Assembly (NCBI RefSeq): GCF_035594765.1
Contig: NC_085842.1
Coordinates: 17,398,782-17,462,781, forward strand
Reading direction: 5' to 3'
DNA from: Anolis carolinensis
Taxonomy: Eukaryota
Length of the DNA: 64,000 nt
A program made the translations under genes and the position numbers. Shown in pieces: positions 36,359 to 42,011 of the stretch. The notes under the pieces are model-generated. The model did not search any database and was not told the DNA's origin. It saw only the letters and a program-made list of their open reading frames with translations. Position 1 is the stretch's first letter. Every line of letters begins with the position of its first letter.

Positions 36359-36774
36359 TATATAAAATACAATTATTGAATTGTATTCTTATAAGTATTA
36401 CACTGTATTATATTACAATATTATTATCAATATTATATGTATATACAATATGTTAGTTTGTTTTGGCCCCTCTCTAATCTGTTAAGATTGTTTTGAATTC
36501 TGCCCCACTAAGTGGTGTCAAACTACAGTTTGGCTGTCAAGACACAGAGGCCTTAAAGAGCCACACACACCATTTAGTCCAACAAAAGGTTTATTTCAAA
36601 ACAATAATATGCTCAGAGACACTTAACTTCAGAATTTCTGGCCAAAACTCAAAGAATTTGCCCAAACTGGGATCCAAAAAGCAAACGGAAAATAACCCGG
36701 ATTAAACAGAAAGAAAACCCGGATTAAAACACAGTCAAAGCAAACAGCAAGCAAACATCGCTGTAGCAAGAGAG

Positions 36775-37120
36775 TGTTGAAGTGAGAATGATTGTATATA
36801 GAGTTGTTTAAATGTAATTGAGTCATTGTGGTGCAATGTGTGCTGGAGATTGCATCATACGCTGTGTGCTGCTAACTATGCAAGTGTGTAAAGGGTTAAA
36901 CGTGGATTTCATCAGACAGCAGAGGATGAGATAAATAGCCCTCTACTTCCTATCTCTGTCCCTTCCCGTGTGTGCCTGCGTGAGAGCTGTGTATTGTCTT
37001 GTGGATTTCAGTTCGGAAGATAACCTTTGATAGATAACCGAAGACTGCAGCGTTGTTATTTACCCAAAGCTTACTCGCCAGTGACTTCTGCTGCGTGTGC
37101 CTAGCAAAGCCACTCTGACA
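36775..37120 (+). mobile_element. Nested solo LTR (346 bp)
   Basis: TGTTG...TGACA termini, 5-bp TSD GAGAG (36770-36774, 37121-37125). Confidence 0.8.
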
Positions 37121-37438
37121 GAGAGTTCCAACAAGCAGCGCTGCACCCAAAGAGTTAAATGCAAAGAGGAGTTGTCCAAGCCAGCCGAGGTCCCAGAGTC
37201 GCTGTAGAGGAAGTCCAAACAAAGTCGTTTCTAAGGTGGTCAAACAGAGCTGTAGTCGAATCAGTTCAAGAGTCAAGGAAGGGAGAGAGCCACACTCACG
37301 AGAAGCCAGTCTGAGTTGAAGAACCACGAAAACCAGGCTGTAGAACCCGAAACCAAAACCCAACAGGAAAACAGGCAGTGACAATACTGACACTTTGCCT
37401 TCTGCAAAGATTCCCCCATTTCAGAGCCTACTTTTAAC

Positions 37439-37998
37439 TTACACATCATTATCCGATGATGAGATGGCCTCCACCCCATCATCATCTCTTACAGCTGTCC
37501 TTGTCTTCACACATGAACCCCTGTTTCCATCTCTCCAGTTCCTCCATCTCCTGTCAAGACTTAGGTTTCCCCATGACTCGGATGCATCTCCCGTTTGCCA
37601 ATCCTCATGTCCCAAAAACCCCACAAACATCTCACTAGAAGTTGGCTCTGCACATATATCCCTTATCTCTTGTACCTTAGTCCAATTCATTGTGTTCTCC
37701 CCATCCTCATCACTCCCAGAGAAACCCATAAACAACTCCTCATCTGTGGGAGCAGTAAGTATATCCCGGAGCTTTTTCCTCTCCTGTTCCTCATCTGATG
37801 CCTGCTCTCGAGTAACCCTCTTAGTGCCTCTATTTCCATCCATCACATCTCCTTCCTCGCTCATCGACTCCCCGCCACTTAAAAACCCTTCGAATGTATC
37901 TTCATCAGTACCATAAGTATAACCCGGATCCTTTTCCTTTGTTGTTCTTCATCTGACACCTGCTCACGATTAGCCCTTTCCCCCCTACTGGTACTCAT
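37439..37998 (-). pseudogene. LTR U3-encoded acidic protein with three helix-acidic-FxGF repeats (one frameshift near 37910; 141-aa open part 37439-37864)
   Basis: ATG 37998 lies about 40 nt inside the LTR start once the nested LTR is removed, and the stop abuts the TATA-like box. Repeats: RIRVIL../TDEDTFEGF, KLRDILTAPTDEELFMGF, EIRDICAEPTSSEMFVGF. Confidence 0.55.
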
Positions 37999-38022
37999 AC
38001 TACTGCTTGCAAAATTACTTAC

Positions 38023-38864
38023 TGTGATATCTCAGGCACCTTTGGCCCCTGACCCTGTGGCCATTGCTGACCAGGATGAAGATTTGGTTTTCTCCCATGG
38101 CAGCAAGATTCAACTCGTTTCCAGATGCCTTCTATTGACATTTCCGAGCCAGCGCCAATTAAGGATGCCCTTGAAACAGTGCCGGCTCTCTCAGATTCTC
38201 CTGACGGGTTAGTGTTTGATCGCAGGGCTCTTTTGAAAACAGAGAGATCGCAGAGACAAAGCTTGAGGAGAAGCGCCAGATTAGCGGAGCGTGGTGATTA
38301 TGGCTAAGCTCAGTTCTCTTGGGAAAAATTAGGGAGTCAGGCACCTGGCTTGGGGGAGCTTATGAACTTCAATAAAAGTATTGCGCTGGAAACTTTCCTT
38401 TGCCGTGTCAACGTTACCTCTTTCTGAGAAGCATCATCGTCTCTAGCTCCTGAATTCCAAGCGGTCTGACGGTGCGCTTACTCCTGAGTAGACCGGGCGT
38501 CGGTCTACCTTCTTGCCCAAGTTTGGACTGCATTTCAGCTCCACCACATCCAGCTCGTGCCTTGCCTTGAAATCCTGCTTTTGGAAATTTACTCCAGAGA
38601 ACTCATCTGTGCTACTTTGCTCCTTTTCCCCACTCAATACTCAAGCCGAGTTTGAGTGTGTTTCGGTTTCTGGACTTTGGACCTTAATATTGGACATAAG
38701 ACTTTCACTTATTGGACTAATTTTGATCTTTCCTGAAAGGTCAATTGCTTGTTCAACTTTTCTGCTTATTTTCTTTTGGAACTTCATTTGCTTCAATAAA
38801 GATATTATATTGTTATTGGCCTCTGTGTTGGTTTTCAGTGCTCTCGCTGCCTAGGGGTGTAACA
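38023..38864 (+). mobile_element. Nested solo LTR (842 bp)
   Basis: TGTGA...TAACA termini, 5-bp TSD CTTAC (38018-38022, 38865-38869); AATAAA at about 38371 and 38796. Confidence 0.85.
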
Positions 38865-40560
38865 CTTACTGGCTCAACTACAACATTGGCGTTTTGGGAT
38901 TTGGTGAAGCAACTGAACTCTTGGGCAGAGAAGGAGGCCTTCACTCGACAGCAGGCATGGGAACACTCCAGGCCTCCCTCCAGGTATTTTGGACTTCAAC
39001 TCCTATGGGCTGTTAGGAATTGTGGGAATTGAAGTCCAAAGCACCTGAAGTTTGCCCATGCCTGCTCTGCAGTGTAGTTCGGAGGTGTACCCTGGCACAG
39101 AAATGCAAGGGAGAGGCAGGAGCAAGGAGCAGTGCCCGCCGCCGAGGGACTCCCTCACCCCGTTCGTGCATGATCCAGACAGAGCAGGAGCGGGCTCAGT
39201 CTGCCACAGGAGCCATCCAGAGCAACGGAGGATGCGAGAGGGAGTCCCTCGCGGAGGGATGCCGCCGAATGAATCTGAGGGGCTCTGGAGCCGGTTCAGA
39301 GTGAGCGAGGAGAAGGAGGAGAAGAGGAGGAGGCTGCTCGCCAAAGCAAGTCAGGCGAGGCGGGACAGGGGCGGAGCTAGGCAGGTCCCACTCTCTCCAA
39401 AAGTGTCCCATCCCAAGGAAATCCAAAGGTGGGAGGGAAGGTAGAAAGGGGAGGGAGGAGGAGACACAAGCAAGTGCAACAGACACACACAAAGTCTCCT
39501 TGCGGAGATCCTCCATTCGTTCCTGGCGGAAGAAGAGTTCAAGCAGTCTCTGCAGTAGCAAGGGAAGGATTTTGCCTGTTGTTATTTTCCCTCCTCGATC
39601 TCCAAAAGTCTCCAAAGGGAGAGGAGACGGAGACACACACACACACACACACTCTTGCCTGGGAGATTGGGAGGGAGATCTCCCACGATCCCTCCACTCC
39701 TTCGTGGGGGGAGGAGGGTTCAGAGGAGGATGGCTGCAAGCAGAGGTTTCGTGAGCGACCCTGGGAGGAGAAGGCGGGAGCGCCTCAACCCGGGCAATTG
39801 CCTGACTTGGCTCGCCACCCCCCCTGGATCACTCCAGGGAATCACTGATTTAAACAATTGAAGACAGAAGAGACTCAGAATTCTCAACACGCCTTTTCTT
39901 CAGGATAAACTAGATTAATTCTGACTTAGTTTTTCAGAAACACCATGTGTCTTTGGAGGTTGAATACGCACATCTGTAATAGATTTTCTATTATTTATAT
40001 GTTATAGATAGGAAAAGAAAGCCTCACATAACCAGTATGCATGAATTGATAGAAAACAATGTATCAGTTATGCTTTATTAGGTATTTCTTAAAAGAAAAC
40101 CCATTCCCACATACATAGAATTACATGGCACACAGGGCTGTTACTCATTATCAAACCCACTTCTCATCAAACTTCTCAATTAAATGTCTTTTTAATCCTG
40201 ATTATACATGACAGGAAATATTTGCAATAATAAAAATACATGAATGGATGAAAAATCCAGAAATATCTTTCCTTTAGCTCTCAAAATATTATCAGTTATG
40301 CTTAATGAGATATTTCATCAAAGAAAATCAATCAGGCTTTTTAATTCAGTGTTTCTATGACAAGGATTCATGCCCCCTCTGATGTAAAACAAGGGATGCT
40401 GCCTTTAACTCATTTTTATCTTGTGGGTTGACAATTTAAAAAGAAGGCTTGTATTTCAACTGCAGATCTTTCCACACTCTGGTTTGTTTCCACTGTGTGA
40501 TTTCCTTGATGACAACTAAAGCCGTGGTTGTGACTGAAGTTCTCTCCACACACTGTGCAT

Positions 40561-41840
40561 TTAAATGGGCTTTACTTCTGTGTGAGTTGCCTGATGACGA
40601 ATAAGGCTTCTCTTTTCACTGAAGCTCTTTTCACACTGCATGCATTTAAATGGCTTCTCTCCTGTGTGAGTTGCCTGATGACTAATAAGGTGGTGCTTTA
40701 GACTAAAGCTTTTTTCACACAGCAAGAATTTGAATGGATTTACTCCTGTGTGAGTTACCTGATGACTAATAAGGTGGTGCTTGTGACTGAAGCACTTTTC
40801 ACACTGCAAGCATTTGAATGGCTTTACTCCTGTGTGAGTTGACTGATGACTAATAAGGTTTCCCTTTTGACTGAAGCTCTTTTCACACACTGAGCATTTA
40901 AATGGCTTCTCTCGTGTGTGAGTTGCATGATGACGAATAAGGTTTCCCTTATGACTAAAGCTCTTTTCACACACTGAGCATTTGAATGGCTTTACTCCTG
41001 TGTGAGTTGACTGATGACTAATAAGGTGGTGCTTGTGACTGAAGCACTTTTCACACTGCAAGCATTTGAATGGCTTTACTCCTGTGTGAGTTGACTGATG
41101 ACTAATAAGGTGTCCCTTTTGACTGAAGCTCTTTTCACACACTGAGCATTTAAATGGCTTCTCTCGTGTGTGAGTTGCATGATGACGAATAAGGTTTCCC
41201 TTATTACTAAAGCTCTTTTCACACTGCAAGCATTTAAATGGTTTTACTCCTGTGTGAGTTGCCTGATGACAAATAAGGATGTGTTTTTGACTGAAGCTCT
41301 TTTCACACTGCAGGCATTTAAATGGCTTCATTCCTGTGTGAGTTACCTGATGACTAATAAAGTTTCTCTTTTCACTAAAGCTCTTTCCACATTCTGAGCA
41401 CTTGAATGGCTTTATTCCTGTATGAATTGCTACTTGGTGACCAACAAGGCCTCCCTTATGACTGAAGCTCTTTCCGCACTGCGAGCATTTAAATGTCTTT
41501 ACTCTTGTGTGAATTGCCTGATGGCAAACAAGGTATGATTTGTGACTGAAGCTCTTTCCACATTCTTGGCATTTAAACAGTTTTTCTCCTGCGTGAGTTG
41601 ACTCATGACAAACAAGGTCTGATTTCTGACTGAAGCTCTTTCCACACTCTCGGCATTTAAACAGTCTCTCTCCTGTGTGAGTTTTTTGATGGCAAACGAG
41701 GTCTGATTTCTGACTGAAGCTCTTTCCACACTCTGGGCATCTGAATGGTGTCTCTCTTGTGTGAGTTCTGTGATGATAAACAAGGCCAAACTTGCTATAG
41801 AAACGTTTTCCACATTCCAAACATTCAAATGGTGTATCCG
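40561..41840 (-). CDS. C2H2 zinc-finger exon of gene C
   Basis: 419-aa ORF of tandem C2H2 fingers, extendable to the TAG| acceptor at 41840. Confidence 0.92.
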
Positions 41841-42011
41841 CTATTTACATGGTTTGAGAAGAAGCGAAGTGTGACCATGTGTAGAAAAGAAAAGCTTATA
41901 TTAGATTAAAGTTAAAAAGTATACAAATAACAAAATGCATTCAGTTGAGATAGTCCTTTCCTACAATCCTTTACAACACTAGCTGTTAAGAGATCTGCCT
42001 GATGCCACAAA

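What the first reader, a model, noticed from the sequence alone, without database searches (positions are those of the whole stretch)
37439..37998. LTR U3-encoded protein with three tandem LEDGF-IBD/TND-binding-like (helix-acidic-FxGF) motifs
Seen: the solo LTR 36535-38885 carries a sense ORF. It starts about 40 nt inside the LTR (ATG 37998, after removing the nested LTR) and stops at 37439 right against the TATA-like box, so it fills U3. One small frameshifting deletion near 37910 separates MSTSRGERANREQVSDEEQQRKRIRVIL from TDEDTFEGF. The reconstructed protein of about 187 aa has three repeats: RIRVIL..TDEDTFEGF (FxGF at 37883-37894), KLRDILTAPTDEELFMGF (37721-37732) and EIRDICAEPTSSEMFVGF (37616-37627), then a basic segment DRRWRNWR..VKTRTAVR. 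Known: an amphipathic helix plus acidic linker plus FxGF is the motif through which JPO2/CDCA7L, IWS1, MLL1 and PogZ bind the LEDGF/p75 integrase-binding domain and other TFIIS-N-terminal domains. From memory, JPO2 reads EVADIFNAPSDDEEFVGF, close to repeat 2. U3-encoded accessory genes exist in MMTV (sag) and HIV (nef overlap). Inference: a squamate LTR element family may encode a multivalent mimic that recruits LEDGF/HRP2/TFIIS-type elongation factors for integration targeting, transcriptional boosting or anti-silencing. I know of no description of this.
Basis: partly seen in the sequence, partly recalled or inferred. Interest (0 to 1): 0.85.

Follow-up and report, generated by a model that had tools for sequence, protein, structure and literature searches.

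The report
Retrotransposon integrase tail mimicking LEDGF partners
This is a broken solo copy of a lizard retrotransposon's end repeat whose coding stretch is the tail of the element's integrase, and that tail carries three short motifs that likely grip the host chromatin reader LEDGF and so would steer where new copies insert, a goal HIV reaches by a different route.

Summary
The solo LTR, the U3 frame and the three helix-acidic-FxGF repeats are real, but they are not a separate U3 gene. They are the C-terminal tail of a Tf1/sushi-type Ty3/Gypsy integrase. Pol runs through the polypurine tract into U3 in 24 of 29 junctions (2 of 4 with this LTR type), and the predicted transcription start lies just after the stop. 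The tail stands where relatives have a chromodomain, which this lineage lacks. Variants shared between copies show purifying selection (omega about 0.55-0.6, against about 1 for private ones; p=0.02). The motif's best PDB match is JPO2's LEDGF-binding motif (E=7e-5). A folding test against anole LEDGF gave weak support only (0.44, controls 0.00). Best reading: an integrase tether to LEDGF/HRP2 made by mimicking host motifs; binding and targeting are untested. Against it: one sister family has no FxGF, and a young sister family is scarce on the small chromosomes. Plant CRM elements share the layout, and the scan noted a Gypsy LTR-borne gene elsewhere (e1-7556530). Ten literature searches showed no such motif in an integrase.

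The parts
36535..38885 (-). Solo LTR of a Tf1/sushi-type Ty3/Gypsy family, about 1185 bp in other copies, here with two nested LTRs
   Evidence: TG..CA ends and TSD; 1153 first-look candidates in G000; same LTR type lies directly after a Gypsy integrase in L128-L131
38886..38890 (.). Target-site duplication, 5' side of the element
   Evidence: GCCAA on the minus strand, same as 36530-36534
36530..36534 (.). Target-site duplication, 3' side of the element
38865..38884 (-). First codons of the U3-encoded integrase tail, cut off from the rest by the nested LTR
   Evidence: frame opens at LTR base 2 and continues integrase in junction copies
37439..38017 (-). Rest of the integrase tail coding stretch, broken by a frameshift near 37910; stop at 37441-37439
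37883..37894 (-). FxGF of motif 1 (its helix lies on the other side of the frameshift)
37721..37771 (-). Motif 2: amphipathic helix, 8-residue acidic linker, FMGF
   Evidence: unit used in the complex prediction
37616..37666 (-). Motif 3: helix, Ser/Thr-rich linker, FVGF (more diverged, less acidic)
37529..37573 (-). Trp/Arg-rich segment, kept in all tail families seen, including the one without FxGF; partner unknown
   Evidence: translations
37432..37437 (-). TATA-like box directly after the stop
   Evidence: function inferred
37395..37405 (-). Predicted U3/R border (start of transcript), by position and likeness to the self-priming complement of sister families
   Evidence: inferred, no primer site of the window's own family was found
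36590..36595 (-). AATAAA polyadenylation signal
38023..38864 (+). Nested solo LTR of another Gypsy family that keeps a chromodomain and has its own U3 tail
   Evidence: TSD CTTAC; family loci
36775..37120 (.). Second nested solo LTR, 346 bp
   Evidence: TSD GAGAG; absent from other copies

Best explanation
The stretch is a decayed solo-LTR copy of the integrase tail of a lizard Tf1/sushi Gypsy retrotransposon, and in source elements that tail likely binds the LEDGF/HRP2 integrase-binding domain through host-mimicking helix-acidic-FxGF motifs and so would tether integration to chromatin read by these proteins. Shown: Pol (protease, RT, RNase H, integrase with SH3) runs without a stop through the polypurine tract into 3'-LTR U3; no chromodomain lies between SH3 and tail; sister families carry one to three motifs; the frame was under purifying selection in source lineages. 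Inferred: the tail stays on mature integrase; it binds LEDGF or HRP2; Ser/Thr in the linkers are phosphorylated as in host motifs; tethering replaced the chromodomain as the targeting device; tandem copies raise avidity. The window copy itself is broken and lies upstream of its own predicted promoter, so it is a fossil of this device.
For: Junctions: 24 of 29 in frame among 30 loci found by integrase-end DNA, one locus without a junction; 2 of 4 for the window's LTR type, the other two broken close to the tract; 3 of 3 in the two-motif sister. Full-length sisters L125-L127 have identical LTR pairs, a 278-codon gag and a 1214-codon pol ending inside the 3' LTR; Pfam finds no Chromo at E<=1. An 11-nt self-priming complement, with a matched change between L124 and L125, lies 37 nt after the stop in L125, a Tf1/sushi trait (PMC6317226, passages). 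Selection in 43 copies: private variants 64 synonymous, 217 non-synonymous, 10 stops (omega 0.96-1.13); variants in 3 or more copies 38, 71, 0 (omega 0.53-0.62); Fisher p=0.02. Motif: PDB profile hit 6EMO at E=7.2e-5; helix, 8-residue acidic linker and FxGF fit the definition in PMC9987994 (first sixth and passages read), which links FxGF specially to LEDGF and HRP2. Complex of motif 2 with anole LEDGF IBD: weak support, 0.44 against best control 0.00, contacts agree at least 88%, partner pLDDT at least 61. The mark was reached by 51 of 78 solved and 2 of 108 mismatched pairs, but at 0.60 or under by only 5 of 78 solved ones and by all 4 mismatches that passed (of 180); a like complex is solved, so the pass may come from memory. 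The tail clade has support 100 and its sister group (support 98) includes an anole family with a weak chromodomain (E=9e-4).
Against: No binding or targeting was measured. One family inside the clade (L156, L157, L220; LTR pair 97.9% identical) keeps helix and acidic linker but has no FxGF, so FxGF is not needed for mobility. Constraint is modest and not shown to centre on the motif: 2 synonymous and 0 non-synonymous shared variants in the 9 F/G/F columns, against 33 and 67 outside the motif cores, too few to test. At most 5 of 105 LTR-end matches of the young families lie off the six large chromosomes, against 15.3% of the bases (p=0.0007) and 7 of 36 for a chromodomain-bearing family (p=0.012). 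If the small chromosomes are gene-richer (recalled, not tested) this runs against HIV-like gene-dense targeting, though selection after insertion or H3K36me2 domains could explain it. Invariance of FxGF in alignment A2 is by construction.
Confidence: 0.6

Rival explanations
1. The tail is an integrase extension that binds a TFIIS-N-terminal-type domain, but the partner is another one (IWS1, TFIIS, Elongin A, MED26, PNUTS) or the purpose is not site choice, for example holding the complex on chromatin, stimulating integration or shielding the new copy from silencing.
For: TIMs without FxGF bind other TNDs (PMC9987994). The FxGF-less family keeps helix and acidic linker. The chromosome distribution does not look gene-dense. 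The complex tool notes that a pass does not tell which family member binds.
Against: FxGF is described as important specifically for LEDGF and HRP2. The likeness is closest to JPO2's LEDGF motif. The position matches the targeting-domain slot of chromovirus integrases (PMC3059260, passages).
Confidence: 0.2
2. The tail is a disordered acidic read-through extension (spacer or nuclear-import region) kept open only because Pol must end somewhere; the motif likeness is chance or reflects U3 DNA elements, and the three copies are ordinary U3 tandem duplications.
For: omega about 0.6 is weak and spread along the tail. The repeats are DNA duplications about 80% identical. FxGF is a short word: 2 of 109 relatives with a recognisable integrase end carry one within 260 residues, near my rough chance estimate of one to two.
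Against: Across 15 natural units of six families the Gly and Pro are each written with all four codons while the helix pattern and spacing stay (units were picked by the motif). The PDB profile hit is at E=7e-5, and 11 of 18 residues match host JPO2 with none matching in the 20 flanking positions.
Confidence: 0.13
3. One reading: a separate U3 accessory protein like MMTV sag or HIV nef, made from its own ATG on a spliced or internally started RNA, acting in trans on transcription or silencing.
For: An ATG 14 codons into the frame is present in 32 of 41 copies; gene callers have predicted stand-alone products from such LTRs (P0003, P0137).
Against: The frame is continuous with integrase. The ATG is replaced in 9 of 41 copies and absent at that position in sister families. 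The ORF lies upstream of the predicted start of transcription.
Confidence: 0.07

Closest known systems
Plant CRM group A chromoviruses (CR motif; PMC3059260 and PMC3605345, passages read)
   Same: Ty3/Gypsy chromovirus whose pol frame extends into the 3' LTR and encodes there a non-chromodomain putative targeting region in place of the chromodomain.
   Different: Vertebrate Tf1/sushi lineage with self-priming, not a tRNA-Met primer; the motif resembles a defined host LEDGF-binding motif, whereas the CR motif's partner was unknown in those papers; no centromere link was tested here.
LEDGF IBD-binding motifs / TIMs of JPO2 (CDCA7L), MLL1, IWS1, PogZ (PMC9987994; PDB 6EMO)
   Same: Amphipathic helix, acidic Ser/Thr linker of 8 residues and FxGF; 11 of 18 residues shared with anole JPO2 motif 1 in one family; JPO2 also has two such motifs in this genome.
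   Different: Carried by a mobile element's integrase and encoded in LTR U3; binding not measured. PogZ is transposase-derived (recalled) but is a fixed host gene.
Lentiviral integrase use of LEDGF/HRP2
   Same: Same predicted host tether and the same predicted purpose, steering integration (PMC9987994, passage).
   Different: Lentiviruses bind through the folded integrase core (recalled), not through a linear helix-acidic-FxGF motif; this element has no env in the full-length copies seen.
Tf1/sushi (V-clade) chromoviruses of vertebrates
   Same: Gag and frameshifted pol, PR-RT-RH-IN order, SH3_Tf2-1, 5-bp TSD, self-priming site.
   Different: Chromodomain missing; long U3-encoded tail with one to three FxGF motifs.
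Short integrase targeting motifs: Ty1-AC40, Ty3-TFIIIB (search listings); Ty5-Sir4 and MLV-BET (recalled)
   Same: A short C-terminal integrase segment that binds a host chromatin or transcription factor.
   Different: Different partner and motif; tandem amplification within U3.
MMTV sag, HIV nef (recalled)
   Same: Coding sequence inside U3.
   Different: Those are separate proteins from spliced RNAs; this frame is the end of Pol.

Membership tests
Tf1/sushi Ty3/Gypsy LTR retrotransposon | LTRs with TG..CA ends and 5-bp TSD | tested here: met
   24 of 30 loci have a TSD with at most one mismatch, one is a 3' LTR, five had an end not located
Tf1/sushi Ty3/Gypsy LTR retrotransposon | Pol order PR-RT-RH-IN with Tf2-type SH3; Ty3-type capsid | tested here: met
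   Pfam on sister element L125; the window's own family has matching decayed pol at 53-82% identity and is in the same clade, support 100
Tf1/sushi Ty3/Gypsy LTR retrotransposon | Self-priming site instead of a tRNA primer site | tested here: met
   11-nt complement in L124, L125, L223, the 3 of 7 elements in which the script located the site; not seen for the window's own family, where no 5' LTR was found
Chromovirus in the strict sense | Chromodomain at the integrase C-terminus | tested here: not met
   No Chromo hit at E<=1 in L125 pol; no room for one between SH3 and the tract junctions; present or weak in relatives
TIM / LEDGF IBD-binding motif | Amphipathic helix, acidic linker of 8-16 residues, FxGF | tested here: met
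   against the definition; repeat 3 is less acidic
TIM / LEDGF IBD-binding motif | Lies in a disordered region | not tested
   No fold was predicted for the whole tail; acidic low-complexity composition, no Pfam family and no Atlas hit are compatible
TIM / LEDGF IBD-binding motif | Binds a TND/IBD, Phe-dependent and raised by phosphorylation | tested here: inconclusive
   Only a prediction: weak support 0.44 against 0.00, with a like complex already solved
U3 accessory gene (sag/nef type) | Separate ORF with its own start, not fused to Pol | tested here: not met
   In-frame continuation of integrase; ATG not conserved
CRM group A centromeric chromoviruses | CR motif, tRNA-Met primer, plant RT clade, centromeric location | tested here: not met
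   Self-priming site and vertebrate host; works like CRM only in layout; centromere position not testable here

The most novel reading that the evidence does not exclude
Squamate Gypsy retrotransposons have more than once swapped the integrase chromodomain for host-mimicking linear motifs grown in the tail behind it: LEDGF-binding helix-acidic-FxGF motifs, amplified to three copies inside U3 in this anole family and present behind a decayed chromodomain in a separate Podarcis lineage. This would be a second, independent route to the LEDGF tether that lentiviruses use, with U3 serving as a fast-evolving cassette for integration-targeting motifs.
Probability: 0.4. Interest if true: 0.85.

Novelty: new variant of a known kind. 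Interest (0 to 1): 0.7.

Why it matters
LEDGF-guided integration is regarded as a lentivirus speciality, and how vertebrate Gypsy elements choose sites is largely open. A recently mobile vertebrate retrotransposon lineage whose integrase carries a JPO2-like motif would show convergent use of the same host tether by motif mimicry. The lineage offers a natural series in one genome (chromodomain, no FxGF, one, two, three motifs) with many solo LTRs as mapped insertion sites, so the link between motif and site choice can be tested from existing data. It also explains anole gene models of unknown function as LTR-borne integrase tails.

Tried and rejected
Primer-site and purine-tract pattern searches for the window's family gave no common internal flank; the link to integrase came from 3' LTRs of a sister family and locus L006. 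A tRNA-type primer site was rejected in favour of self-priming. Pfam found nothing for the tail and the Atlas gave no usable hit. Protein searches returned only two anole gene models derived from this LTR family. RNA: no RNA holder listed. Contigs of four runs guessed to be RNA cover all 30 bins of the sister element, one bridges the integrase-LTR junction, and the four joints listed lie in the 3' part of the LTR with no GT..AG ends; contigs cannot show absence of splicing. Capture of the motif from host CDCA7L could not be told from convergence: no identity in the flanks for the best-matching family, third bases 5 of 11. One origin for the anole and Podarcis FxGF tails: p-AU 0.0003 without and 0.047 with P0143, which groups with them and whose tail is unknown; quick trees, so only a lean toward separate origins. 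The careful tree did not finish, and one row in it (L219 at 2786) is a different element under a wrong label. Gene-body enrichment could not be tested because G000 has no annotation here. Flank GC differed little (0.38-0.41). No supplementary files were read; Repbase entries and papers outside the library may already list these families.

Full report
Observation. The minus strand from 38885 to 36535 is a solo LTR with TG..CA ends and the 5-bp duplication GCCAA on both sides; two foreign LTRs are nested in it at 38023-38864 and 36775-37120, each with its own duplication. The three FxGF words are at the stated places and share a frame with the stop at 37439-37441; the ATG at 37998 is separated from them by a frameshift near 37910. 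A DNA search of the own genome gave 1153 first-look candidates, of which 40 were scored and 30 fetched; 24 of the 30 are solo LTRs with a target duplication, one is a 3' LTR, and five had an end not located. The frame is unbroken in 16 of 43 natural copies. An exon of this genome's LEDGF gene is 100% identical to proteins named Anolis carolinensis PSIP1, so the host is likely the green anole.

What it is. The frame is open from the second base of the LTR, which pointed to a start further upstream. A search on the LTR end of a young sister family returned 20 of 30 loci with a purine tract before the LTR, and locus L006 of the window's own family has the same tract with a Gypsy integrase directly upstream. 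Among 30 loci found with that integrase-end DNA, 29 have a junction and 24 of these read integrase into U3 in frame; for the window's LTR type it is 2 of 4, the other two being broken near the tract. Full-length sisters are 6.3 kb, with LTR pairs 99.9-100% identical, a 278-codon gag and, in three of four, a 1214-codon pol that ends 418 bases into the 3' LTR. Pfam shows protease, RT, RNase H, H2C2, rve and SH3_Tf2-1 and no chromodomain at E<=1. The sequence after the 5' LTR is not a tRNA site but an 11-nt complement of a site 37 nt after the stop, with a matched change between two copies; self-priming is a Tf1/sushi trait (PMC6317226, passages). By analogy that site marks the start of transcription, so the coding stretch lies wholly in U3 and would be translated only as the end of Pol.

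Selection. In 43 copies, private variants were 64 synonymous, 217 non-synonymous and 10 stops (omega 0.96-1.13 under three mutation models); variants seen in three or more copies were 38, 71 and 0 (omega 0.53-0.62; Fisher p=0.02; five duplicate loci were dropped first, and codons with more than one change were not counted). Copies thus decay neutrally while their sources were constrained. The nine F/G/F columns have no shared non-synonymous variant in three or more copies, but the numbers are too small to test.

The motif. A natural unbroken copy has one PDB hit at E<=10, the JPO2 motif in the LEDGF complex 6EMO; a profile of 30 natural units finds it at E=7.2e-5 with the next hit at 0.45. The units have a helix, an 8-residue acidic Ser/Thr linker and FxGF, as defined in PMC9987994 (first sixth and passages read), which ties FxGF to LEDGF and HRP2. 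The host's CDCA7L has two such motifs; the single-motif young family shares 11 of 18 residues with the first and none of 20 flanking ones. Folding window motif 2 with the anole LEDGF domain gave weak support: 0.44 against a best control of 0.00, contacts agreeing at least 88%, partner pLDDT at least 61, alignments not used. The mark was reached by 51 of 78 solved and 2 of 108 mismatched pairs, at 0.60 or under by only 5 of 78 solved and all 4 passing mismatches, and a like complex is solved. This shows likeness, not binding.

Evolution. The anole tail families form one clade (support 100) whose sister group includes an anole family with a weak chromodomain. Of the 150 nearest library proteins, 109 have a recognisable integrase end and at least 64 of these match a chromodomain pattern. 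Motif number in the clade is zero, one, two or three. The nested LTR's family keeps its chromodomain and also reads into U3, with a different tail. A Podarcis lineage and an ENA protein have a decayed or weak chromodomain followed by an FxGF tail; a common origin with the anole clade is disfavoured but not firmly (p-AU 0.0003 or 0.047 depending on one row).

Results against the reading. A family without FxGF was mobile fairly recently (LTR pair 97.9% identical). Constraint is modest. At most 5 of 105 matches to the young families' LTR end lie off the six large chromosomes, against 15.3% expected and 7 of 36 for the chromodomain family. The families differ in where they lie, which fits different targeting, but the direction is not the gene-dense bias known for HIV if the small chromosomes are gene-richer (recalled). 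Two FxGF words among 109 relatives is close to chance by count alone.

Mechanism and odds. That the stretch is an integrase tail: about 0.95. That the motifs bind LEDGF/HRP2 or a related domain: about 0.8. That this tethers integration through LEDGF/HRP2: 0.6. The steps still inferred are retention of the tail on integrase, binding, partner identity, avidity from three copies and an effect on site choice.

Comparison with what is known. [quoted passage not shown] Short integrase tethers are known from Ty1 and Ty3 (search listings) and from Ty5 and MLV (recalled). The review of these motifs names only lentiviral integrases under viral mimicry and has no mention of transposons. Ten searches showed no FxGF motif in a retrotransposon integrase, judged from listings; of three papers holding both FxGF and 'transpos', I read passages of one (PMC6877644: a host kinase) and saw only listings of the others. 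PMC11011659 (passages) surveys anole metaviral capsids without describing this tail in the passages seen. The library lacks most subscription papers and Repbase.

Verdict. A real feature, misread as an accessory gene: a new variant of the integrase targeting tail, with a convincing sequence case and an untested functional case for LEDGF mimicry. Interest 0.7.

Noticed in passing
window 38023-38864 (+); family loci L179-L191, L194: The nested LTR's family keeps a chromodomain after SH3, shares the same purine tract, and its chromodomain-to-tract segment reads on in frame into a U3 tail of about 95 codons with an acidic FGF and an RRSARL segment like the HMGN nucleosome-binding motif (likeness recalled). 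Read-through into U3 is thus shared by more anole Gypsy families. The window copy is frameshifted.
   Followed up: partly
P0132, P0275, P0276 (Podarcis muralis, UniRef) and P0131 (ENA): Gypsy integrases with a decayed or weak chromodomain followed by an acidic tail holding helix, linker and FQGF or FLGF; a separate clade from the anole tail lineage.
   Followed up: partly
L156, L157, L220: Family within the tail clade that has helix, acidic linker and the Trp-rich segment but no FxGF.
   Followed up: partly
L062-L091 and L092-L121: One young family is solo in 30 of 30 loci at 99% identity, while 20 of 30 loci from a search on the shared LTR end are 3' LTRs with internal sequence.
   Followed up: no
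L002 (G000:C2:17389789-17393346): The LTR, both nested LTRs and the flanks are duplicated 45 kb away at 98.8% identity over 3555 bases, with the same frameshift: a segmental duplication after decay.
   Followed up: yes
codon 178 of the tail grid, 6 of 43 copies: A shared 2-nt loss after the Trp-rich segment; either a hot spot or a source lineage that could spare the last 28 codons.
   Followed up: no
window 40561-41844 (-): C2H2 zinc-finger array exon, 427 codons, 1.7 kb upstream of the LTR on the same strand.
   Followed up: no
L158 (G000:C2:143718346-143718648): Intronless LEDGF/PSIP1 fragment with a stop, likely a processed pseudogene; the exon-split gene is at C2 235.4 Mb.
   Followed up: no
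P0003 (XP_016852620.1) and P0004 (A0A803SSX5): Anole gene models that begin with this LTR-borne tail and continue into unrelated sequence.
   Followed up: partly
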